From a virus, in UHGV virus genome UHGV-1528002: DNA of 36,070 nt. The stretch is one strand, 5' to 3'. Positions within the stretch are counted from its first letter, which is position 1. Each line of letters begins with the position of its first letter. A model generated the notes under the pieces. The model saw only the letters and a list, made by a program, of their open reading frames with translations. It was not told the origin of the DNA and ran no database searches. Made by a program: the position numbers and the translations under genes. Of this stretch, positions 5,292 to 36,070 are shown piece by piece.

Positions 5292-5876
5292 TTATTGTTT
5301 GTTTTTTTCGTTCTGGTTGATGACAAATTCAATGTAACTTTCGATCTTTGCTTTCTCGGTTTCGGGTAACAATGCGTAGCGCGAGCGGTCATAGTTGATG
5401 GTCGCAGGGTCGTGCGGGTGAATCAGTAATTCATAGCCGTGACGCCCGAATGCGGATGCAACATTCTCCAGGGTGGAAATGGAAACGCTGACCTCATTGT
5501 TTAACAGGCGGCTGATTGTCACCTGGGCGACGCCGGATGCGCGGTGAAGTTTTCCCTGAGTTGAAAGGTCGCGGCTTTCGCTCATCCAGCGTTCCAGGTT
5601 GTGAGCCGCCAGCTGACCAATGTCGCTTGGGCCGACAGGCTGAAAACCTTCCTGAGAAAGCGAGCGATCGATATCAAGCCAGTTACGTGGTTTATTGGCG
5701 GCAGCTTCAATTTTTCGCGCAACCTGGTCGCCGATAACCTTCTTGCCAAGAGCCCAGCGGTTTACCAGATTTGCCTGAGTTCCAAGTTTTTCTGCCATCC
5801 GCGTCTGAACACCATTGAATTCACGGTCGATCAAGTCGTTGAGATTTTGCCTGCGGACGTCCTGGATACTTTTCAT
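5292..5876 (-). CDS. Immunity repressor, tandem helix-turn-helix type, no recognisable autocleavage domain
   Basis: Two HTH-like segments (TRMAEKLGTQANLVNRWALGKK and HRASGVAQVTISRLLNNEVSVSISTLENVASAF); divergent from a Cro-like gene and flanked by palindromic operators; no Ala-Gly/Ser-Lys peptidase motif seen. Confidence 0.7.
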   Translation of the reverse strand: MKSIQDVRRQNLNDLIDREFNGVQTRMAEKLGTQANLVNRWALGKKVIGDQVARKIEAAANKPRNWLDIDRSLSQEGFQPVGPSDIGQLAAHNLERWMSESRDLSTQGKLHRASGVAQVTISRLLNNEVSVSISTLENVASAFGRHGYELLIHPHDPATINYDRSRYALLPETEKAKIESYIEFVINQNEKNKQ

Positions 5877-6331: not shown

Positions 6332-6411
6332 TAAAAAACCAAATATGGTTGATCTTTTTTTTGTGTCAGCACAAAATAACCGTAATCCCAATACTAATAA
6401 CAGGGCTTACC

Positions 6412-8295: not shown

Positions 8296-8338
8296 ATTGA
8301 TTTCGTGTCTTATGTGGTTTTTAATTACCTAAGAGGTA
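8296..8338 (+). promoter_or_regulatory. Promoter with overlapping operator for the DUF1064 gene
   Basis: TTGATT (8296-8301), 17 bp, TTTAAT (8319-8324), then TTACCTAAGAGGTAA (8324-8338) starting at the last T of the -10. Confidence 0.55.
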
Positions 8339-8342
8339 AATC

Positions 8343-8687
8343 ATGAGAAAACAGATACAGGCTCTTGGTCGACTCAAAACAGGCCAGATGAACAAAACAG
8401 AATCTGCGTATTGCCAGCACCTTGAGCTGCGTAAACGTGCAGGAGAAATCGTCTGGTATCGATTTGAGGGTATCAAGCTGCGGTTAGCTGACAACACGTT
8501 CTATACGCCCGATTTTGCTGTGATGCTCGCCACCGGCGAGATGGAACTGCACGAAGTGAAAGGTTTCTGGACCGACGACGCCAGGGTGAAAACCAAAGTC
8601 GCCGCAGATCAGTATCCGTTCCGAATCATCGGGGTAACGGTTAAACCAAAGAAAGCAGGTGGTGGCTGGAACATCGAAGAGTTCTGA
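8343..8687 (+). CDS. DUF1064-family phage protein (putative small nuclease/resolvase-like)
   Basis: 114 aa; pattern recalled as DUF1064 (GEIVWYRFEGIKLRLADNTFYTPDFAV...HEVKGFWTDDARVKTKV). Confidence 0.55.
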   Translation: MRKQIQALGRLKTGQMNKTESAYCQHLELRKRAGEIVWYRFEGIKLRLADNTFYTPDFAVMLATGEMELHEVKGFWTDDARVKTKVAADQYPFRIIGVTVKPKKAGGGWNIEEF

Positions 8688-28991: not shown

Positions 28992-31171
28992 TGGCAGCAA
29001 ACGAATTTTTGACGCAGTGCGAGCGCAGTGTAAATGCTGCCGCTGGTCGCGAGCTTTCTTCCGATGAGATGGAGTCGCTGGTGCGTGACATGAACGACAC
29101 CACTAGGCGAATTCTGGCGACCAATGAGGCGCTGTCTCTGGAAGAGGCCGCGATGCGCGCAGCGGAAGAACTGAGCAATGCCGATATGCTGGCAAAACAG
29201 ATTGAGGCTCGCAATAAGGCAATCAACGCCCGTATTGCCGCACAACGACTTAGAGAGCTTCGTACTATCTGGAAAGACCGCCCGGATATCGGGCTTGAAG
29301 CAATGCTGGTTGGCCGCAACGATGCGCGTATCGGCGCCCGCCGGTCGGTATCTTCGGAGGTGGCGCAACTGCGCGGCAAGTATCATTCCGGTATCAACTA
29401 CGATTTTGACCGTGCCGGGCTGGTGCAATTCATCGCCAGCGGCAGCAATGACCGGGAAATTGCCGATGCAATGTGGCGCATAGGGCGCGGGCAGTCAACT
29501 GACGGTATGACAAAGCAATCCGTAAGCGCTGCACAAATCATCATGAAATGGCAGGAAACTGCGCGTATTGATGAGAACCGCGCCGGGGCATGGATACGCA
29601 AAGAGCCGGGCTATATAGTGCGCCAGTCACACGACATCATGAAGATCCGCGCCGCAGGTTATGAAGCATGGCGAAATGCTATTCTCCCGCGCCTTGATGA
29701 GCGCACTTTTGACGGCGTGGCTGACCGCGAGCAGTTCATGCGTAACATTTATAACGGGCTGGCTTCCGGCGTGCATCTTACATCTGAAAAGCCCGATTGG
29801 ATGAATGGCTTTAAGGGATCGGCGAACGCAGCTAAACGCGCCAGCCAAGAGCGAATTTTGCACTTCAAAGATGGTATCTCGTGGCACGAGTACAACCAGC
29901 AATTCGGCACCGGCAGCCTGCGAGAAGCGCTGTTTGGTGGCTTAAACAGCGCTGCCCGCACAACGGGCATGATGCGCGTACTGGGCACTAACCCACAGAA
30001 CATGTTTAAGTACCTGACGGACACCATTGCTGAAGATATCAGCAAATCCGGAAGACCGGCAGCGTTGGCTGACTACATGACGAAGGTGCGTCGCATTAAC
30101 CGTACCGTAATGCCGCAGGTTGACGGCTCGCTAAATATTCCTGGCAGCGTAGGCTGGGCCAATGCGTCGGCGGCTGTACGCGGCTGGTTGCGTATGAGCC
30201 AGCTTGGTGGCGCGGTAATCTCATCGTTTAACGACGTGCCTATCGCCGCTACCGAGATGCGCTACCAAGGGCAGAATTTTATGCAGGCGTTGCTTGGTGC
30301 TATGAGAGGCCGCTTCACGCGTTACAACAGCGCGGAGCAGAAAGAGATCCTTTCCTCTAAGGGGATCAAGCCAACGCAGCGCGCTATCGCTGACGCACGC
30401 GATCAATTGGAAGGGCAGTTGCGCGGCTACATCCTTGACCGCCTGAATATCGCCATGTCAGAGCCTGGCGATCGCACGCAGGCGTTTATGAAGATGGGTA
30501 CGGTGCCAGGAACGGTGGCTGGGGAAGCAATACGATTCGCTGGTCAGTACAAATCGTTCACTGCAAGCTTCATGCAGAACGTGCTAGGACGCGAAGTATT
30601 CGGGCGTGGTTATATTCCTGCTGGGCTTGGTGAGTCGAAAACCGGATCGCTGACGAATGCGCTGCTACGTAACGGGAAGGGGGCTTTCCTTGGCGCTGCA
30701 AACCTCTTTGTCTGGGCGACTATGTTTGGTTATATCTCCATGCAGTCAAAACTCATGCTGAAAGGGCAAACACCACGCCCGGCAGATGCCAAGACGTTTC
30801 TCGCAGCCGCATCTCAGGGGGGCGGTCTTGGCATCTTGGGTGACTTCATGTTTGGCGAAGTCAATCGCATGGGGGCCGGGCCGGTTACGTCGCTAATGGG
30901 GCCGGCAGCATCGAACGCTGACAGCATTATCACGCTGCTCCAGCAGACCACGAGAGGGGATGCAGATTTGGGTGACTGGTATCGCACGGCACTTGACAAT
31001 ACGCCATTCCTCAACGTGTTCTGGCTTCGTACGGCGATGAATGGTTTAATATTGAACCGGATACAAGATGCCCTTGACCCAGGCTCTCTTGAGCGTTATC
31101 AGCGCCGTGTTGAGCGTGAGCAGGGTAACGAATTTCTGATCCCACCATCGCAGTTCATGCTAGGGAAGTAA
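28988..31171 (+). CDS. Internal virion/ejection protein (large)
   Basis: 727 aa, last large gene before the accessory island; ATGA overlap with the upstream gene. Confidence 0.5.
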   Translation: MMAANEFLTQCERSVNAAAGRELSSDEMESLVRDMNDTTRRILATNEALSLEEAAMRAAEELSNADMLAKQIEARNKAINARIAAQRLRELRTIWKDRPDIGLEAMLVGRNDARIGARRSVSSEVAQLRGKYHSGINYDFDRAGLVQFIASGSNDREIADAMWRIGRGQSTDGMTKQSVSAAQIIMKWQETARIDENRAGAWIRKEPGYIVRQSHDIMKIRAAGYEAWRNAILPRLDERTFDGVADREQFMRNIYNGLASGVHLTSEKPDWMNGFKGSANAAKRASQERILHFKDGISWHEYNQQFGTGSLREALFGGLNSAARTTGMMRVLGTNPQNMFKYLTDTIAEDISKSGRPAALADYMTKVRRINRTVMPQVDGSLNIPGSVGWANASAAVRGWLRMSQLGGAVISSFNDVPIAATEMRYQGQNFMQALLGAMRGRFTRYNSAEQKEILSSKGIKPTQRAIADARDQLEGQLRGYILDRLNIAMSEPGDRTQAFMKMGTVPGTVAGEAIRFAGQYKSFTASFMQNVLGREVFGRGYIPAGLGESKTGSLTNALLRNGKGAFLGAANLFVWATMFGYISMQSKLMLKGQTPRPADAKTFLAAASQGGGLGILGDFMFGEVNRMGAGPVTSLMGPAASNADSIITLLQQTTRGDADLGDWYRTALDNTPFLNVFWLRTAMNGLILNRIQDALDPGSLERYQRRVEREQGNEFLIPPSQFMLGK

Positions 31172-31172
31172 T

Positions 31173-31544
31173 ATGAACAGAATTATATTAATGATTATTC
31201 TTATGCTTTTAGTTGTAAAATCTTTTGCAGATACTACCTCACCGTTAATGATTCAGCCTAAAAATGGGGAAACACTGGAGGATTCTAAAAAGCATACAAT
31301 GGAATATTTTGGATGTATAAAAGGGCAGGCCGTAAAATACGCTAAGACAGGAGAAAGTGTTGATTCTATATCCAAAGCTTCGGTTGTGTCATGCGAGTCG
31401 TACATACAAAAGATTGCTGAATCAAATATATACTATTTAAATTCCTCTCAAGACGGTAAGCGGAAATTTATTGGAAGGCTTAAATCAGATGGTGAAAATT
31501 TAGCAACAAAATTTGCTATGGATGAAAAGCTAAAAAATAAATAG
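31173..31544 (+). CDS. Small secreted protein (signal peptide, 2 Cys), AT-rich moron
   Basis: N-terminal hydrophobic signal MNRIILMIILMLLVVKSFA then polar mature region; very AT-rich codon usage; starts 1 nt after the ejection-protein stop. Confidence 0.5.
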   Translation: MNRIILMIILMLLVVKSFADTTSPLMIQPKNGETLEDSKKHTMEYFGCIKGQAVKYAKTGESVDSISKASVVSCESYIQKIAESNIYYLNSSQDGKRKFIGRLKSDGENLATKFAMDEKLKNK

Positions 31545-31552
31545 GTGACTAC

Positions 31553-31849
31553 ATGCAAGCGATAGGATTCATTGTTTATATCGTCGTTGGTCTTTTTCAG
31601 TTGGCAGCAATTATGGCTGGGCTTGAATCATGGTGGGGATTGCACTGGATAATTGCAGCCCCCATTGCTTTCATCGTGAGCTATATTCCATTTGTTGGAG
31701 CGATTGTTGGTATGGTTGGCGCTGTGGATGTATGGCGGTGGGAGTGGTGGCAGGCTGGCCTTCTCTTCTTTGGTGGGATCATCTTTGCTATTGTCTGCGG
31801 TGGAATGTCATCATTTTTCGAATGGCTATCATTCAGAAAAAGAGTGTGA
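31553..31849 (+). CDS. Small integral membrane protein (3 predicted TM helices)
   Basis: 98 aa with three hydrophobic stretches and a basic C-terminus (FRKRV); AGGTGA RBS. Confidence 0.5.
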   Translation: MQAIGFIVYIVVGLFQLAAIMAGLESWWGLHWIIAAPIAFIVSYIPFVGAIVGMVGAVDVWRWEWWQAGLLFFGGIIFAIVCGGMSSFFEWLSFRKRV

Positions 31850-32919: not shown

Positions 32920-33606
32920 TCAGAAGAACCCTGCCTTGTCGTTGATGTACTCCGCGTGGGTCTGGATATCACGCAGGCATTTACTCACACCGACGATGTA
33001 GCAGAACATGGTGGTCAGTTCCGCCGCCGCGCCCGATACGTCATGCCCGTCTTCCTGTAACTGGTTCAGCAAATTCATCAGCAGTGAGTTCTCCGTCAGG
33101 CCGAGAACACCAGACGGCGAATGAATCAGGCTGCGGTAGCCGGGCTTCAGCGGGGCACTGTAGGTTTTGTTCTCTATCTTCATCGCCTGCATCACTGCTG
33201 ATGCTGTGGCGTTTGCAACCTGGTCGGCAACCATCTTTATGCGTTCTTCCTGCGGGAGCGAGTTTTTAATGTAACTTCCGGTGCGGCGGATCTGAGGAAG
33301 AACCTCACCTGTAACCCATTTACGAAAGCGGTAGGGGATAGTGCCTGGTGTCACCGCATCGCGGCAGCGGAGGATCAGTGTGTAGAGGCCTGACTCGCTG
33401 ATAATATTGGTTTCGCCTTGACGACCTAAGTTAAATTTAGCCCTTTCATCATCATCAAGAGATTTGATTGACATGGTGGGGTTTGTCAGTTGAAGAGCTT
33501 TAATAACGTCTTTGGCAACAAACCAAGGATTTCCATCAATAACAATGGCTCGAATGGTTGCTTCTGATTCAAAATGAAAAACAGATGGGGTTACGTTAGC
33601 AGTCAT
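32920..33606 (-). CDS. Antirepressor, BRO-N domain with KilAC-like C-terminal domain
   Basis: N-terminal FHFESEATIRAIVIDGNPWFVAKDVIKALQL...IISESGLYTLILRC is the BRO-N pattern; ATG 33606 behind AAGGTGA RBS; C-terminal 75 aa are paralogous to the small gene at 34757-35014. Confidence 0.8.
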   Translation of the reverse strand: MTANVTPSVFHFESEATIRAIVIDGNPWFVAKDVIKALQLTNPTMSIKSLDDDERAKFNLGRQGETNIISESGLYTLILRCRDAVTPGTIPYRFRKWVTGEVLPQIRRTGSYIKNSLPQEERIKMVADQVANATASAVMQAMKIENKTYSAPLKPGYRSLIHSPSGVLGLTENSLLMNLLNQLQEDGHDVSGAAAELTTMFCYIVGVSKCLRDIQTHAEYINDKAGFF

Positions 33607-33762
33607 GGCAATCACCTTTTAGTATGGTTAATCACCACCTGAGGTGCAAATCTCGTTGGTGGTGAGACGTACAGGGTTTGCACTACCGGCTAAAAGGACC
33701 CGGCGCACCTTTCGGTGCCCCTGCACGTCCCACCATAATTCTGGCATGACTGTGCTATACGC

Positions 33763-33784
33763 ATAAAAAAACCACGTCTGGCGT
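33763..33784 (-). terminator. Terminator-like hairpin inside the antirepressor 5' leader
   Basis: Minus strand CCACG-ccaga-CGTGG followed by TTTTTTT, about 160 nt upstream of the antirepressor start. Confidence 0.45.
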
Positions 33785-33877
33785 GGTATGCGCCTTTTAG
33801 TAATCCGGGGTGCAAATCCCGGCACTGGATTTTGCCAGTGCTCAATTACTATGGCACAAGAGGAGTGCGATGTAAAT

Positions 33878-33921
33878 TTACCGCAAAGGTAATGATAAAC
33901 GCTGATAAATATAAAAATCAA
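33878..33921 (-). promoter_or_regulatory. Leftward promoter with overlapping operator driving the antirepressor leader
   Basis: Minus strand TTGATT (plus 33916-33921), 18 bp, TATCAT (plus 33892-33897), then TTACCTTTGCGGTAA (plus 33878-33892) starting at the last T of the -10. Confidence 0.5.
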
Positions 33922-33970
33922 CCGTATTTGGTTGATTGCGTTTAACGCTTGATCACCTGAAAGCAAGATA

Positions 33971-33985
33971 TTACCTTTAAGGTAA
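33971..33985. promoter_or_regulatory. Operator palindrome TTACCTTTAAGGTAA
   Basis: Exact consensus copy 21 bp upstream of the ATG of the membrane zinc-ribbon gene. Confidence 0.5.
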
Positions 33986-34005
33986 TGTTATTGTGAGGAA
34001 AAGCA

Positions 34006-34734
34006 ATGGAAGTTTTCTGGATAGTTGTTGGTGTGGTTGCGGTGATTATTTACGTTATCAACCAGAACAAGACTAAGATCTCTGATCGTACGGTCGTTAA
34101 TCATAACAAAACGATAAAGACCGAAGATGGGGAGATAACGATTAATCGTACACAGGTGATAGAACACACCTCTACTCAGTTTCAAAAAACTGGAGGTAAT
34201 GCGCCTAATATTTCCGCACCTCCTGCTTATGATAGTGCGGTAATCCAGACATATTATAAACAGCAGGAGTTAGCAAAAGAGAGGCAACTGATTCAGCCAA
34301 AGCCGTTTACAGCTGAGCTTCCACCTGGAGTGTCAACGCGTCCGGCATATCATGGAAGATTCCCTGGTGATGACATATCGTCTCAGTCATCTAAAAAAGC
34401 ACCTCAGGCAGTATCAGAGCCAGCAAGAATACCTTCTGTATCGCCGCCAAAAGAAGAATCAGCTAACAGAGTTTCAAGTGGTAGCAAGCAGTGCTTGCGA
34501 TGCAGAATAAACCTTCCATATGAAAAATTCAGGAAATCGTCAAAAAATCCAGATGGATTGACTAAGTGGTGTGCAAGGTGTCTCGATGGCCCAAAGAATA
34601 CACGCCATATGAAGTGGTGCCCAATTTGTAATGTCCGCAGAAAACGAACCAGCTTTTACCCTAATAATCAAAATGCGGACGGCTTAATGGCATGGTGCAA
34701 AACGTGCTGGGATGAGCACAAAGCGAAACGATAG
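34006..34734 (+). CDS. Membrane-anchored protein with tandem C-terminal zinc ribbons
   Basis: N-terminal TM helix (VFWIVVGVVAVIIYVI), low-complexity linker, two repeats of CxxC...NPDGL..WCxxC; GAGGAAAA RBS. Confidence 0.55.
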   Translation: MEVFWIVVGVVAVIIYVINQNKTKISDRTVVNHNKTIKTEDGEITINRTQVIEHTSTQFQKTGGNAPNISAPPAYDSAVIQTYYKQQELAKERQLIQPKPFTAELPPGVSTRPAYHGRFPGDDISSQSSKKAPQAVSEPARIPSVSPPKEESANRVSSGSKQCLRCRINLPYEKFRKSSKNPDGLTKWCARCLDGPKNTRHMKWCPICNVRRKRTSFYPNNQNADGLMAWCKTCWDEHKAKR

Positions 34735-34756
34735 GCCGCTCTTGCGGCCTTTAAAT

Positions 34757-35014
34757 TTACCGGGTTTGTTTTCGTAATTGTTCGGCACAATAGTCGAGAT
34801 GTGTTTGCAGATCCTGCATAGACATCTGTGAGCTGGTGACGTAGTTAATCAGTGCAGTCAGTTCGGCAAGTGGGCCATCGACATTAAATCCATCCTTATC
34901 GAGATCCCGGAGTAATTTCATCAAGTGCGATCCCTCCACCAGTGATCTGACGCCTCCCGGCGTGTGAATCCTTTCGGTAAATCCGTCTTCCAGTGGATAG
35001 TGATACTGCTGCAT
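34757..35014 (-). CDS. Small KilAC-like protein (stand-alone antirepressor C-domain paralog), candidate SOS-induced antirepressor
   Basis: ATG 35014 behind GGAGAAG RBS (the track's longer ORF begins at TTG 35032); about 40% identity to the C-terminus of the BRO-N antirepressor (e.g. IHTPGGV / IHSPSGV, AELT, DLQTH / DIQTH); LexA box 22 bp upstream. Confidence 0.55.
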   Translation of the reverse strand: MQQYHYPLEDGFTERIHTPGGVRSLVEGSHLMKLLRDLDKDGFNVDGPLAELTALINYVTSSQMSMQDLQTHLDYCAEQLRKQTR

Positions 35015-35033
35015 CTTATCTTCTCCATGCAAT

Positions 35034-35053
35034 AACTGTATAAATATACAGTA
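35034..35053. promoter_or_regulatory. LexA (SOS) box
   Basis: AACTGTATAAATATACAGTA: CTGT-N8-ACAG with AT-rich spacer, 18 of 20 matches to TACTGTATATATATACAGTA. Confidence 0.75.
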
Positions 35054-35090
35054 TCAAATAATTTGTTTGCTATCCAGCACGTTTTGCAAA

Positions 35091-35105
35091 TTACCTGAAA
35101 GGTAA
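35091..35105. promoter_or_regulatory. Operator palindrome TTACCTGAAAGGTAA
   Basis: Exact consensus copy in the divergent region between the small KilAC-like gene and the tail-fibre gene. Confidence 0.5.
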
Positions 35106-35209
35106 TATCTATTCATATTCACAGTCTTTCTATCCATATGTGGTTTTTCAGGTAATAGAATAACCAGATATGCGGCGCAACGGGTGCTGCGACTATCTGG
35201 AGATTTAAC

Positions 35210-36070
35210 ATGACGGTCTCAACCGAAGTTGACCACAACGAATACACAGGTAACGGCGCTACGACATCATTTCCGTATACCTTCCGTATTTTCAAAAAAT
35301 CCGACCTGGTTGTTCAGGTGTCTGACCTGAACGGGAACGTAACAGAATTGGTTCTGGATACCGGTTATACGGTAACTGGGGCGGGCACTTATAGTGGCGG
35401 TTCTGTGGTTCTTCCGTCGCCGCTTGCTGCTGGCTGGCGAATTACGATAGATCGTGTGCTTGATGTGGTGCAGGAGACAGACCTTCGCAATCAGGGAAAG
35501 TTTTTCCCCGAAGTGCATGAGGATGCCTTTGACTATCTGACGATGCTGATCCAGCAATGTTTTGGGTGGTTCAGACGTGCATTGATGAAGCCCTCTCTGC
35601 TTGCAAAATATTACGATGCAAAGCAAAACAGAATTTCTAACCTTGCAGATCCATCACTTGAGCAGGATGCTGTAAATAATCGCTCAATGCGTAATTATGT
35701 CGATGCTGCAATCGCCGGGGTTGTTGGTGGTTTTGGTTGGTTTATTCAGTATGGTTCTGGAGCAGTATACCGAACGTTCCAGGATAAGATGAGAGATATC
35801 GTCAGTGTTAGCGATTTTGGTGCAAAGGGAGATGGAATAACTGATTCTACGGAGGCGTTCTCTAATGCAGGCCACAGAGCGTTTGTTCCTAATGGCGATT
35901 TTGCAGTAAATACTCTCGAAGTTGATGTATCTTCTGTTCAAGGTATTGGGAGGATTGTTGCTGATAATGGATCTCTTATTTCAGTTTCTCGTCTACTTGA
36001 AACTGACAAACTTGTGCAGAGAAAAATGATGGAACCTTTTTTTGGTTTTCAGGGAGAAACAAACACAGAA
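35210..36070 (+). CDS. Tail fibre/tailspike, N-terminal part (CDS continues beyond the window)
   Basis: Open frame from ATG 35210 (GGAG RBS) to the window end with no stop; N-terminus MTVSTEVDHNEYTGNGATTSFPYTFRIFKKSDLVV resembles the conserved tail-attachment domain of T7-like fibres; DFGAKGDGITDST suggests the start of a beta-helix enzymatic domain. Confidence 0.7.
   Translation, partial: MTVSTEVDHNEYTGNGATTSFPYTFRIFKKSDLVVQVSDLNGNVTELVLDTGYTVTGAGTYSGGSVVLPSPLAAGWRITIDRVLDVVQETDLRNQGKFFPEVHEDAFDYLTMLIQQCFGWFRRALMKPSLLAKYYDAKQNRISNLADPSLEQDAVNNRSMRNYVDAAIAGVVGGFGWFIQYGSGAVYRTFQDKMRDIVSVSDFGAKGDGITDSTEAFSNAGHRAFVPNGDFAVNTLEVDVSSVQGIGRIVADNGSLISVSRLLETDKLVQRKMMEPFFGFQGETNTE

What the first reader, a model, noticed from the sequence alone, without database searches (positions are those of the whole stretch)
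33971..34734. Membrane-anchored protein with tandem cytoplasmic zinc ribbons behind an operator
Single N-terminal TM helix, a Pro/Ser-rich linker, then two repeats of CxxC-(about 20 aa with conserved NPDGL/ADGL and W)-CxxC. I do not recognise this architecture as a standard phage protein. The operator 21 bp upstream of its ATG suggests expression is tied to the immunity state. It could be an exclusion or abortive-infection sensor or a membrane-tethered nucleic-acid-binding protein.
Basis: inference. Interest (0 to 1): 0.55.

Follow-up and report, generated by a model that had tools for sequence, protein, structure and literature searches.

The report
Repressor-controlled membrane-tethered zinc-ribbon phage protein
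An optional gene cassette in an epsilon15/phiV10-like E. coli prophage encodes an uncharacterised inner-membrane-anchored protein with two DNA-enzyme-type zinc ribbons facing the cytoplasm, wired directly to the phage repressor, and it is a good but untested candidate for a new phage-against-phage exclusion factor.

Summary
ORF 34006..34734 (+, 242 aa) encodes one N-terminal TM helix, a conserved juxtamembrane beta-hairpin, a variable Pro/Ser/Gln/Ala-rich disordered linker, and two Cys4 zinc ribbons in a very basic domain (net +14). The 17-bp palindrome at 33970-33986 is a perfect copy of a motif found 16 times in the window (0.72 expected). It covers the -10 of a promoter whose geometry is conserved in homologues from four other genera.

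The window is an epsilon15/phiV10-like prophage. The cassette 33883-34756 (promoter, operator, gene, terminator) is missing from phiV10. It occurs in about a quarter of such E. coli prophages.

The protein belongs to an uncharacterised family (phrog_6762) with no PADLOC or NCBIfam match. Its zinc module is the Stc1-like repeat that elsewhere is fused to HNH and endonuclease VII nucleases.

In five lambdoid lineages, remote homologues with the same architecture lie 15-54 nt downstream of the S24 CI repressor gene, the position rexAB holds in lambda.

My best reading is a membrane-tethered DNA-binding accessory protein tied to the immunity state, most likely acting in phage exclusion. In this phage it should be made on derepression, not in the stable lysogen. 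Function is inferred, not shown. Interest is moderate.

The parts
33883..34756 (+). Accessory cassette (promoter, operator, gene, terminator), absent from phiV10
   Evidence: blastn against phiV10 aligns 33520-33882 and 34757-35385 only (sequences). The cassette is 42.4% GC against 49.9% for the window. It is present in 129 of 5426 complete E. coli genomes, while 524 carry the flanking backbone.
33949..33954 (+). Predicted -35 hexamer TTGATC
   Evidence: It lies 17 nt upstream of TACCTT. A TTGAyC/TTGAAy hexamer sits at the same distance from the operator in Enterobacter, Serratia, Providencia and metagenomic homologue loci, although the spacers have diverged. This is a sequence inference; the TSS was not mapped.
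33972..33977 (+). Predicted -10 hexamer TACCTT, inside the left half of the operator
   Evidence: It has the TAnnnT form with a 17-nt spacer, and the same geometry occurs in homologue loci. The phage's PL-like and Pant promoters show analogous overlap of operator and -10.
33970..33986 (.). Operator, perfect palindrome ATTACCTTTAAGGTAAT
   Evidence: The motif is 16-fold present against 0.72 expected. Sites cluster around the HTH repressor gene 5292..5876 and at other promoters.
33995..33999 (+). Shine-Dalgarno GAGGA
   Evidence: Read directly from the sequence, 6 nt before the ATG.
34006..34734 (+). ORF, 242 aa plus stop (called TMZn here)
   Evidence: dN/dS is 0.22-0.46 between E. coli alleles in six of seven comparisons; the seventh gave 1.11 on five differences.
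34006..34071 (+). N-terminal transmembrane helix (residues 1-22), predicted N-out/C-in
   Evidence: KD19 is 2.33 and flank charges are -1 and +2. AF2 gives a helix at 3-22. The segment is highly conserved.
34090..34161 (+). Conserved juxtamembrane beta-hairpin (residues 29-52)
   Evidence: AF2 gives strands 29-39 and 42-52 at pLDDT about 65. T39 and G42 are invariant and E43 nearly so, including in remote homologues.
34186..34470 (+). Variable low-complexity linker (residues 61-155)
   Evidence: It is 45% P+S+Q+A and has low pLDDT except for a helix at 77-93. Its length varies among homologues.
34486..34590 (+). Zinc ribbon 1 (residues 161-195; C163, C166, C189, C192)
   Evidence: The Cys are invariant and pLDDT exceeds 90. 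It matches endonuclease VII, HNH and Lar-like N-terminal zinc modules in PHROGs.
34612..34716 (+). Zinc ribbon 2 (residues 203-237; C205, C208, C231, C234)
   Evidence: Same evidence as ribbon 1. The tandem pair is the best PDB fold match, to the Stc1 tandem zinc finger 2LUY.
34733..34760 (+). Intrinsic terminator (GGCCGC stem, then a T-rich tail), overlapping the stop codon
   Evidence: Found by the scan. The same stem is conserved immediately after the stop in the Enterobacter and Providencia homologues, with different loops.
33877..33921 (-). Back-to-back partner: Pant promoter (-35 at 33921-33916, -10 at 33897-33892) with its operator at 33877-33893
   Evidence: Found by the scan and the operator context listing. 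It drives the isrK-like RNA, the C4 RNA and the Bro-N antirepressor. The operator is conserved in phiV10.

Best explanation
Shown by sequence and comparison:
- The region is a self-contained accessory transcription unit in an epsilon15/phiV10-like prophage.
- Its product is a bitopic inner-membrane protein. It has a 2-residue periplasmic N-terminus, one TM helix, a conserved juxtamembrane beta-hairpin, a flexible linker of about 95 residues, and a strongly basic C-terminal domain made of two Cys4 zinc ribbons.
- The zinc ribbons are of the Stc1-like repeat type that is elsewhere fused to HNH and endonuclease VII nucleases.
- Its promoter has its -10 inside a perfect copy of the phage's dispersed 17-bp operator. 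The promoter lies back-to-back with the operator-controlled antirepressor promoter.

Inferred regulation:
- The main HTH repressor (5292..5876, minus strand) shuts the gene off in the stable lysogen.
- The gene fires with the first wave of transcription, either after infection of a naive cell or after SOS/antirepressor-driven derepression.

Inferred mechanism:
- The zinc-ribbon domain binds nucleic acid.
- Because it is held on a long leash at the cytoplasmic face of the inner membrane, it acts on DNA or an ejection complex arriving at the membrane.
- It would thereby exclude or disable a second phage while the cell is committed to this phage.
- In lambdoid phages the same protein is made together with CI and would protect the lysogen. 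That is the position held by rexAB in lambda.
For: Architecture.

Genuine, selected gene:
- 73 homologue clusters keep the TM segment, hairpin and Cys.
- dN/dS is 0.22-0.46 in six of seven allele comparisons.
- phrog_6762 matches full length at E 1e-150.

Operator and promoter:
- The motif is enriched 16 against 0.72.
- Sites flank the repressor gene and overlap -10 elements of other promoters.
- The arrangement -35, 17 nt, -10 inside the operator is conserved in Enterobacter, Serratia and Providencia loci. In Providencia the operator is TTAACC-N5-GGTTAA.

Accessory status:
- The cassette is absent from phiV10.
- It is in 129 genomes, while 524 carry the backbone.
- It has lower GC.

Link to immunity in other phages: the homologue lies 15-54 nt after an S24 CI gene and is followed by a terminator and a PL-like promoter. 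This holds in Aeromonas phage phiARM81mr, Acinetobacter sp. HY1485 and three metagenomic lambdoid lineages.

DNA-binding inference:
- The domain has net charge +14.
- The repeat is shared with proteins carrying Endonuclease_7 (10 of 64), HNH (8), HNH_5 (8) and helicase domains.
- PHROG hits go to endonuclease VII, HNH and primase N-termini.
- BFVD fold hits are HNH endonucleases.
- There is a weak match to the N-terminal zinc motif of PacI.

Position: the variable immunity region lies between the ejection-protein genes and the tailspike gene. From my own knowledge, P22 carries sieA and immI in the equivalent region.
Against: - No experiment or homology links the protein to exclusion. PADLOC, NCBIfam and Pfam give no functional family.
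- In this phage the operator geometry predicts no expression in the lysogen. Any exclusion would be limited to infected or induced cells, as with T4 Imm. This is less common for temperate-phage morons.
- The two regulatory contexts are opposite in the lysogen: repressed by the repressor here, co-transcribed with cI in lambdoids.
- DNA binding is inferred from domain partners and charge only. The only solved relative, Stc1, uses the tandem fingers for protein-protein contacts (its role is from my own knowledge).
- The promoter hexamers are weak matches, and the generic scan did not call them.
- Repressor binding to this motif has not been shown for this phage.
Confidence: 0.4

Rival explanations
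1. It is an early helper of the phage's own DNA metabolism. A membrane anchor would hold phage DNA for replication, recombination or integration at the inner membrane, as the early protein p16.7 of Bacillus phage phi29 does (N-terminal TM, then a DNA-binding C-terminal domain).
For: The promoter is predicted to be early and repressor-controlled. The protein has an N-terminal TM and a basic putative DNA-binding domain. The p16.7 precedent is from my own knowledge.
Against: - The gene is dispensable. It is absent from phiV10, epsilon15-type records and about three quarters of E. coli prophages of this type.
- In lambdoid phages it is co-transcribed with cI, not with the replication genes.
- There is no sequence or fold similarity to p16.7.
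Confidence: 0.15
2. It modulates the lysis-lysogeny decision or the repressor circuit. For example, it could hold a host or phage factor at the membrane (a protease such as FtsH, the repressor, or an antirepressor) during establishment or induction.
For: - It is linked to immunity modules in two unrelated phage types. It lies beside ant/C4 and a LexA-boxed small antirepressor here, and directly behind cI in lambdoids.
- Stc1-type tandem fingers can be protein-binding modules.
- It is co-regulated with Ant from back-to-back promoters.
Against: It is optional within closely related prophages that share the same repressor/antirepressor set. It has no similarity to known regulators. Immunity regions are also general hotspots for unrelated accessory genes.
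Confidence: 0.15
3. It is a host-takeover or counter-defence early protein. It could, for example, block cell division (ZipA-like topology) or neutralise a membrane-associated host defence or restriction function.
For: It is predicted to be immediate-early and then repressed, as anti-defence genes typically are. One PHROG with a matching zinc module is labelled Lar-like restriction alleviation. One remote homologue carries a ZipA label from an automatic annotation.
Against: Both the Lar-like and the ZipA labels rest on generic zinc-ribbon or low-complexity linker similarity. Co-transcription with cI in lambdoid prophages is not the timing expected for counter-defence or host shut-off.
Confidence: 0.1
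4. It is a decayed remnant of a mobile HNH/endonuclease VII gene, or a chance ORF with no function of its own.
For: The zinc repeat is typical of the N-termini of such nucleases.
Against: - The full architecture (TM, hairpin, two ribbons) is conserved from E. coli to Aeromonas and Acinetobacter at 26-63% identity.
- dN/dS is below 0.5 in six of seven allele comparisons.
- The gene has its own conserved promoter, operator and terminator.
- No nuclease-domain remnant is detected.
Confidence: 0.03

Closest known systems
Stc1 tandem zinc-finger domain (Pfam PF12898; PDB 2LUY)
   Same: Both have two consecutive CxxC...CxxC zinc modules in about 85 residues. 2LUY is the best PDB fold match (E 3.3e-3, prob 0.89). 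The Pfam Stc1 model is the only Pfam hit, and it is significant for related multi-repeat proteins (32 of 64, best E 3.4e-18).
   Different: The window protein scores 21.0 bits against a gathering threshold of 24.8. Stc1 is a soluble fungal RNAi/heterochromatin adaptor (my own knowledge). This protein is a phage membrane protein with a TM anchor and a hairpin that Stc1 lacks.
N-terminal zinc modules of phage and giant-virus HNH / endonuclease VII nucleases (e.g. phrog_1035, phrog_2633; PacI 3LDY)
   Same: They share the repeat signature K-x-C-x2-C ... F ... DG(L) ... (W)C-K-x-C. BFVD fold hits reach E 2e-7. PacI gives a weak sequence match (E 0.19).
   Different: There is no beta-beta-alpha-Me / HNH or Endonuclease_7 catalytic domain. 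A membrane anchor stands where those proteins carry an enzyme domain.
Prophage immunity-region exclusion genes (lambda rexAB behind cI; P22 sieA between the ejection genes and immI; T4 imm as an early membrane exclusion protein) - from my own knowledge
   Same: It is a membrane protein and optional. It lies directly behind cI in lambdoid relatives. In epsilon15-like phages it lies in the ejection-gene / antirepressor / tailspike region. Predicted early expression here resembles T4 imm.
   Different: There is no sequence or fold similarity to any of these proteins and no PADLOC hit. The functional domain is cytoplasmic and zinc-binding. In this phage the gene is predicted to be repressed in the lysogen, unlike rexAB and sieA. 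The phenotype is untested.
Bacillus phage phi29 p16.7 (membrane-anchored early DNA-binding protein) - from my own knowledge
   Same: Both have an N-terminal TM, a spacer and a C-terminal nucleic-acid-binding domain, with early expression.
   Different: The folds are unrelated. p16.7 is part of the replication machinery of its phage, whereas this gene is accessory and linked to immunity modules.

Membership tests
PHROG phrog_6762 (unknown function) | Full-length profile match | tested here: met
   E 1.1e-150, residues 1-242 against profile positions 1-242 of 242.
Pfam Stc1 domain (PF12898) | Score at or above the gathering threshold (24.8 bits) | tested here: not met
   21.0 bits, E 5.1e-4. Homologue P0049 reaches 25.0 and P0043 24.7. 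Multi-repeat relatives reach E 3.4e-18.
Pfam Stc1 domain (PF12898) | Tandem pair of Cys4 zinc modules with the Stc1 fold | tested here: inconclusive
   Eight invariant Cys form two CxxC-x22-CxxC units. The Foldseek top PDB hit is 2LUY, but at E 3.3e-3 and a low TM-score. Metal binding is not testable here.
HNH / endonuclease VII nucleases | Beta-beta-alpha-Me catalytic domain (Pfam HNH, HNH_5 or Endonuclease_7) | tested here: not met
   No such Pfam hit even at E up to 1. PHROG matches cover only the zinc module of those families.
Known anti-phage defence or exclusion proteins (PADLOC-DB v2) | Profile match to any catalogued defence protein | tested here: not met
   0 families at E up to 0.1, for the ORF and for four neighbouring ORFs.
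Superinfection-exclusion / abortive-infection genes (functional class) | Expressed from the prophage in the lysogen | tested here: inconclusive
   In the window the operator overlaps the -10, which predicts repression in the lysogen. Lambdoid homologues lie 15-54 nt after cI and before a terminator, which predicts co-expression with CI. No transcript data are available.
Superinfection-exclusion / abortive-infection genes (functional class) | Reduces infection by a challenging phage | not testable with these tools
   This needs plating and DNA-entry assays.
Moron (autonomous accessory cassette in a phage genome) | Own promoter and terminator, inserted between backbone genes, absent from close relatives, deviant composition | tested here: met
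   One departure from the classic definition: the promoter is predicted to be repressor-controlled rather than active in the lysogen.
Repressor regulon of the epsilon15/phiV10-like phage | Copy of the dispersed 17-bp palindrome overlapping the promoter | tested here: met
   A perfect palindrome lies at 33970-33986. The motif has 16 sites against 0.72 expected, including sites around the repressor gene. Repressor binding itself is not testable here.
Holins / lysis proteins | Homology to a holin, spanin or endolysin family, or position in the lysis cassette | tested here: not met
   No Pfam or PHROG lysis hit. Holin and endolysin genes lie elsewhere, downstream of the tailspike gene, in relatives.

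The most novel reading that the evidence does not exclude
TMZn proteins are a previously unrecognised family of immunity-coupled phage-exclusion or defence factors. A DNA-binding tandem zinc ribbon would be leashed to the cytoplasmic face of the inner membrane and would intercept incoming foreign DNA or its ejection complex. Different phage lineages deploy it either in the cI operon or as a repressor-gated immediate-early gene.
Probability: 0.3. Interest if true: 0.7.

Novelty: new variant of a known kind. Interest (0 to 1): 0.5.

Why it matters
About 2.4% of complete E. coli genomes carry this gene (129 of 5426). Homologues occur in many Enterobacterales, and also in Aeromonas and Acinetobacter prophages. 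No database gives it a function.

It is tied to the phage repressor in two different ways. In epsilon15-like phages its promoter carries the operator. In lambdoid phages it is co-transcribed with cI. Linkage of this kind has repeatedly marked genes for phage-phage conflict.

If it is an exclusion or defence factor, it would add a mechanistically new type: a cytoplasm-facing, membrane-leashed zinc-ribbon DNA binder. It would also show that the Stc1-like zinc repeat of mobile nucleases can be reused as a stand-alone effector.

If it instead serves the phage's own DNA handling or the lysogeny decision, it is still a tractable, compact module. A 242-aa protein with one promoter and one operator can be tested directly.

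Tried and rejected
- A structural or lysis assignment is rejected. There are no such hits, and the lysis genes lie elsewhere.
- A known defence system is rejected on current catalogues: PADLOC has no hit and NCBIfam has none.
- Activation rather than repression by the operator is rejected. The operator centre is only 28 bp from the ATG, so it cannot sit upstream of a -35.
- Alternative promoters were considered. One is an extended -10, TGTTATTGT at 33986-33994. It would give a leader of about 5 nt that lacks the Shine-Dalgarno, and it is not conserved in homologue loci.
- A periplasmic C-terminal domain is rejected on charge distribution and Cys4 zinc chemistry.
- The Pfam family PF27269 'YonG_N' appears only as faint precomputed hits on remote homologues. 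It is not in the local Pfam copy, and a literature search gave nothing informative.
- Literature searches for the epsilon15 operator, WP_000451759, Stc1 in phages, and zinc-ribbon exclusion proteins returned nothing relevant. The epsilon15 genome paper is not held.
- Foldseek against afdb50 was unavailable.
- The scan of species-representative genomes found only 4 loci. The family is therefore rare at species-representative level.
- The TL-2011b tblastn match starts at residue 19. I checked whether this was a frameshift, and it is not: the N-terminal coding sequence is intact.
Full report
**1. What the window is**

Region 33614-35200 is 94.8% identical to Escherichia phage TL-2011b. Only its two flanks match phiV10, vB_EcoP_ZX5 and other Uetakevirus-type (epsilon15-like) podophages. 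The window also holds the following:
- an integrase;
- an HTH repressor without an S24 domain, at 5292..5876 on the minus strand;
- large putative ejection/internal virion genes ending at 31171 (assigned by position relative);
- a Bro-N antirepressor at 32920..33615 on the minus strand.

**2. The observation**

The ORF 34006..34734 (+) is real, starts with ATG, and has a GAGGA Shine-Dalgarno 6 nt upstream. It encodes 242 aa.
- Residues 1-22 form the only hydrophobic segment (KD19 2.33; the next best window is 0.04).
- Residues 61-155 are 45% P+S+Q+A.
- Residues 156-242 carry two CxxC-x22-CxxC units, with NPDGL/NADGL and a Trp before the second CxxC. This domain has net charge +14.

AlphaFold2 with a 21-sequence alignment gives this layout:

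| Residues | Predicted element | Confidence |
|---|---|---|
| 3-22 | helix | pLDDT about 90 |
| 29-52 | beta-hairpin | about 65 |
| 77-93 | helix | moderate |
| 94-158 | disordered | low |
| 160-241 | two zinc-ribbon units | pLDDT 92-97 |

The palindrome ATTACCTTTAAGGTAAT lies at 33970-33986, 19 nt before the ATG. The motif ATTACCNNNNNGGTAAT occurs 16 times at up to 2 mismatches, against 0.72 expected. None of 100 shuffles reached that count.

**3. The operator and the promoter**

Copies of the palindrome sit around the repressor gene (5157, 5219, 5931, 6316) and in front of other transcription units (8262/8324, 12149/12167, 15358, 32833, 33877, 35090).
- At the leftward promoter next to the repressor gene, a TTGACA -35 is followed after 17 nt by a -10 whose last bases are the first bases of the operator. 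A second operator lies 62 bp away. The pair 8262/8324 has the same 62-bp spacing.
- The antirepressor promoter has the same layout: TTGATT at 33921-33916, TATCAT at 33897-33892, and the operator at 33893-33877.
- For the ORF, I place the -35 at TTGATC (33949-33954) and the -10 at TACCTT (33972-33977), inside the operator's left half.

The generic scan does not call this promoter. Comparison supports it, however. Homologue loci from Enterobacter, Serratia, Providencia and several metagenomic phages have diverged spacers. Even so, a TTGAyC/TTGAAy hexamer sits exactly 17 nt before TACCTT or TAACCT within a palindrome. In the Providencia phage the palindrome is different, TTAACC-N5-GGTTAA.

The operator centre is 28 bp from the ATG. 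It can therefore only repress, not activate.

The two promoters are back-to-back, with their -35 elements 27 bp apart, and each is capped by an operator. Ant and this gene should be co-regulated.

That the palindrome is the binding site of the 194-aa repressor is inferred from distribution, not shown. A paper on the related phage ZX5 reports that overexpressing its repressor cuts lysis-gene transcription by more than 99.9% (PMC9782041). It does not map operators.

**4. It is an optional cassette**

phiV10 aligns up to 33882 and again from 34757. About 40 bp there replace 874 bp here. The inserted block contains the promoter, the operator, the ORF and a terminator (34733-34750 plus a T-rich tail). 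Homologues conserve the terminator stem immediately after the stop codon.
- The cassette is 42.4% GC against 49.9% for the window.
- It occurs in 129 of 5426 complete E. coli genomes, always chromosomal. 524 genomes carry the adjacent gp19-like/tailspike backbone.
- RefSeq calls the product a hypothetical protein, WP_000451759.1.
- E. coli alleles differ with dN/dS 0.22-0.46 in six of seven comparisons. The seventh gave 1.11 on five differences.

**5. The family**

A first search found 33 clusters, and a profile search found 73 clusters. Named members are from E. coli, Salmonella, Citrobacter, Enterobacter, Superficieibacter, Serratia, Providencia, Morganella, Pectobacterium and Buttiauxella, plus unnamed metagenomic sequences. 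All named ones are 'hypothetical'.

Conserved features are the TM segment, the motif N-x-[NK]-[RK]-T-K ... T-[IV]-[KQ]-T-x-x-G-[ES]-[IV] of the hairpin, and all eight Cys. The linker is free to vary. One member has a single ribbon (P0066).

The protein matches phrog_6762 (unknown function) end to end. It has no PADLOC or NCBIfam match.

**6. The zinc module**
- Pfam gives only a sub-threshold Stc1 hit, 21.0 against 24.8 bits.
- The best PDB fold match is the Stc1 tandem zinc finger 2LUY (E 3.3e-3).
- PHROG profiles for endonuclease VII, HNH endonuclease, a Lar-like protein and a primase match the ribbons only through their own N-terminal zinc modules (E 1e-5 to 2e-11 for the nuclease and Lar-like profiles, 3e-3 for the primase).
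- An exhaustive HMMER search with residues 156-242 found 901 representatives at E up to 1e-3. These fall into two groups:
  - proteins of about 200-240 aa with one C-terminal match, which is this family;
  - longer proteins with 3-8 repeats.
- Of 64 of the longer proteins, 32 match Stc1 (best E 3.4e-18), 10 Endonuclease_7, 8 HNH and 8 HNH_5. A few carry helicase or Bro-N domains.
- BFVD fold hits are HNH endonucleases and zinc-finger proteins of phages and giant viruses (E down to 2e-7).
- PacI's N-terminal zinc motif matches weakly (E 0.19).
- The window protein has no nuclease domain.

The module therefore travels with DNA-cutting and DNA-unwinding enzymes. Together with the +14 charge, this is the basis for inferring nucleic-acid binding. 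It remains an inference.

**7. Genomic context elsewhere**

In epsilon15-like phages the gene always lies in the variable region between the ejection-protein genes and the tailspike gene. It sits alongside the Bro-N antirepressor and a small gp19-like gene.
- The E. coli arrangement is Ant(-) TMZn(+) gp19-like(-).
- Other genera have gp19-like(+) Ant(+) TMZn(+), facing the ejection genes.
- The gene has its own promoter and operator in most loci of both arrangements. Some IMG/VR loci (for example L074-L081) show no obvious copy.

In phages of a different type, remote homologues (26-33% identity, same architecture) lie immediately downstream of an S24-type CI repressor gene on the same strand. 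They are followed by a terminator and a PL-like promoter in the three lineages whose downstream sequence shows one (L010, L090, L101).

| Lineage | Gap after cI |
|---|---|
| Aeromonas phage phiARM81mr p22 | 18 nt |
| Metagenomic lineage L090/L091/L092/L099 | 18 nt |
| L101 | 15 nt |
| L102/L103 | 34 nt |
| Acinetobacter sp. HY1485 | 54 nt |

In the L090 lineage the gene is followed by a signal-peptide-bearing SNase/Excalibur nuclease.

From my own knowledge, the slot behind cI holds rexAB in lambda. Five of the five contexts I could read outside epsilon15-like phages show this linkage. The family is therefore tied to the immunity module in two independent ways.

**8. Mechanism**

The following is shown or directly readable:
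- a bitopic membrane protein with a cytoplasm-facing, basic, tandem Cys4 domain on a long flexible linker;
- an autonomous, optional cassette;
- a promoter overlapped by the phage's operator.

Inferred regulation in this phage: the gene is off in the stable lysogen. It switches on in the first transcription wave after infection, or after derepression.

A near-consensus LexA box (35034-35053) precedes the gp19-like gene. That gene is a stand-alone homologue of the antirepressor's C-terminal domain, and the main repressor lacks S24. SOS-triggered antirepression is therefore plausible, and this gene would then fire together with ant.

Inferred function, at about 0.3-0.4: a membrane-leashed DNA binder acts on DNA or an ejection complex arriving at the cytoplasmic face of the inner membrane. 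It would exclude a second phage. In this phage that would happen during the infected or induced state, comparable in timing to T4 Imm. In lambdoid carriers it would happen in the lysogen, in the rex-like position.

The optional, hotspot-like distribution favours a conflict function over a core regulatory or replication role.

The main weakness is that the two regulatory contexts are opposite in the lysogen, and no phenotype is known. The rivals are the following:
- a DNA-membrane tether for the phage's own replication or integration (0.15);
- a modulator of the lysis-lysogeny circuit (0.15);
- host takeover or counter-defence (0.1);
- a decayed nuclease gene (0.03).

**9. Comparison with what is known, and novelty**

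The protein is a member of phrog_6762. It is not a member of the HNH/EndoVII nucleases, because the catalytic domain is absent. It falls just below the Pfam Stc1 threshold while clearly sharing that repeat.

It resembles exclusion genes of immunity regions, and phi29 p16.7, only in logic and not in sequence or fold.

I found no description of a TM-anchored tandem Stc1-like zinc-ribbon protein in the libraries or papers I could search.

I rate it a new variant of a known kind, an immunity-region accessory membrane protein, with an unprecedented effector domain arrangement. Interest is 0.5.

Noticed in passing
window 35034-35053, with the gene at 34757..35014 (-): A near-consensus LexA box, AACTGTATAAATATACAGTA (2 mismatches to the consensus, 0 expected by chance), lies 20 nt upstream of the ATG of the 85-aa gp19-like gene. 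That gene is a stand-alone homologue of the C-terminal domain of the Bro-N antirepressor (phrog_450 / phrog_1760). The main repressor lacks an S24 domain, so this looks like an SOS-controlled small antirepressor that triggers induction.
   Followed up: partly
window 33655-33854 (-): An isrK-like RNA (33841-33765, 67 bits) and a C4 antisense RNA (33740-33655, 78 bits) lie between the operator-controlled promoter and the Bro-N antirepressor gene. A sub-threshold c4-a1b1 target match accompanies them. Together they form a P1 immI-like antisense-controlled ant module in an epsilon15-like podophage.
   Followed up: partly
window 5157/5219 and 8262/8324: Operator copies occur in pairs exactly 62 bp apart (about six helical turns) that bracket promoters. 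One covers the -10/+1 and the other lies upstream of the -35, which suggests cooperative or looped repression. The pair 33877/33970 is 93 bp apart and caps two divergent promoters.
   Followed up: partly
window 8310-8322, 35136-35148, 6334-6346 (-) and others: A second recurrent motif, ATATGTGGTTTTT, has 6 matches at up to 2 mismatches against 1.06 expected. Copies lie just upstream of the gene at 8343 and of the tailspike gene. It may be a site for another regulator.
   Followed up: no
L063-L069, about 50-65 nt upstream of the homologue's ATG: A palindrome, TGTGACATGTCACA, lies immediately upstream of the -35 of the homologue's promoter in Enterobacter/Citrobacter-type phages. It is absent from the window. 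Its spacing (N4) is not that of a CRP site. It may be a further regulatory input.
   Followed up: no
L090 6654-7307 and L093 5783-5995: In a lambdoid lineage the operon reads cI, TMZn homologue, then a signal-peptide-bearing SNase/Excalibur nuclease. In another phage a small secreted Excalibur-domain protein directly precedes a one-ribbon homologue. This may be a functional partnership or simply shared accessory cargo.
   Followed up: partly
window 31173..31544 (+) and 31553..31849 (+): Two small genes follow the ejection-protein genes. One is a 123-aa protein with a signal-peptide-like N-terminus and no family match. The other is a 98-aa multi-TM protein (phrog_3075, unknown function). They are further accessory envelope proteins in the same variable region.
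   Followed up: no
window 34733-34760 and 33916-33937: The ORF and the LexA-controlled gp19-like gene converge with only 22 nt between their stop codons. The hairpin between them has a T-rich tail only on the + strand. A minus-strand terminator-like hairpin lies at 33937-33916. SOS-induced gp19-like transcripts might therefore read antisense through the ORF.
   Followed up: no
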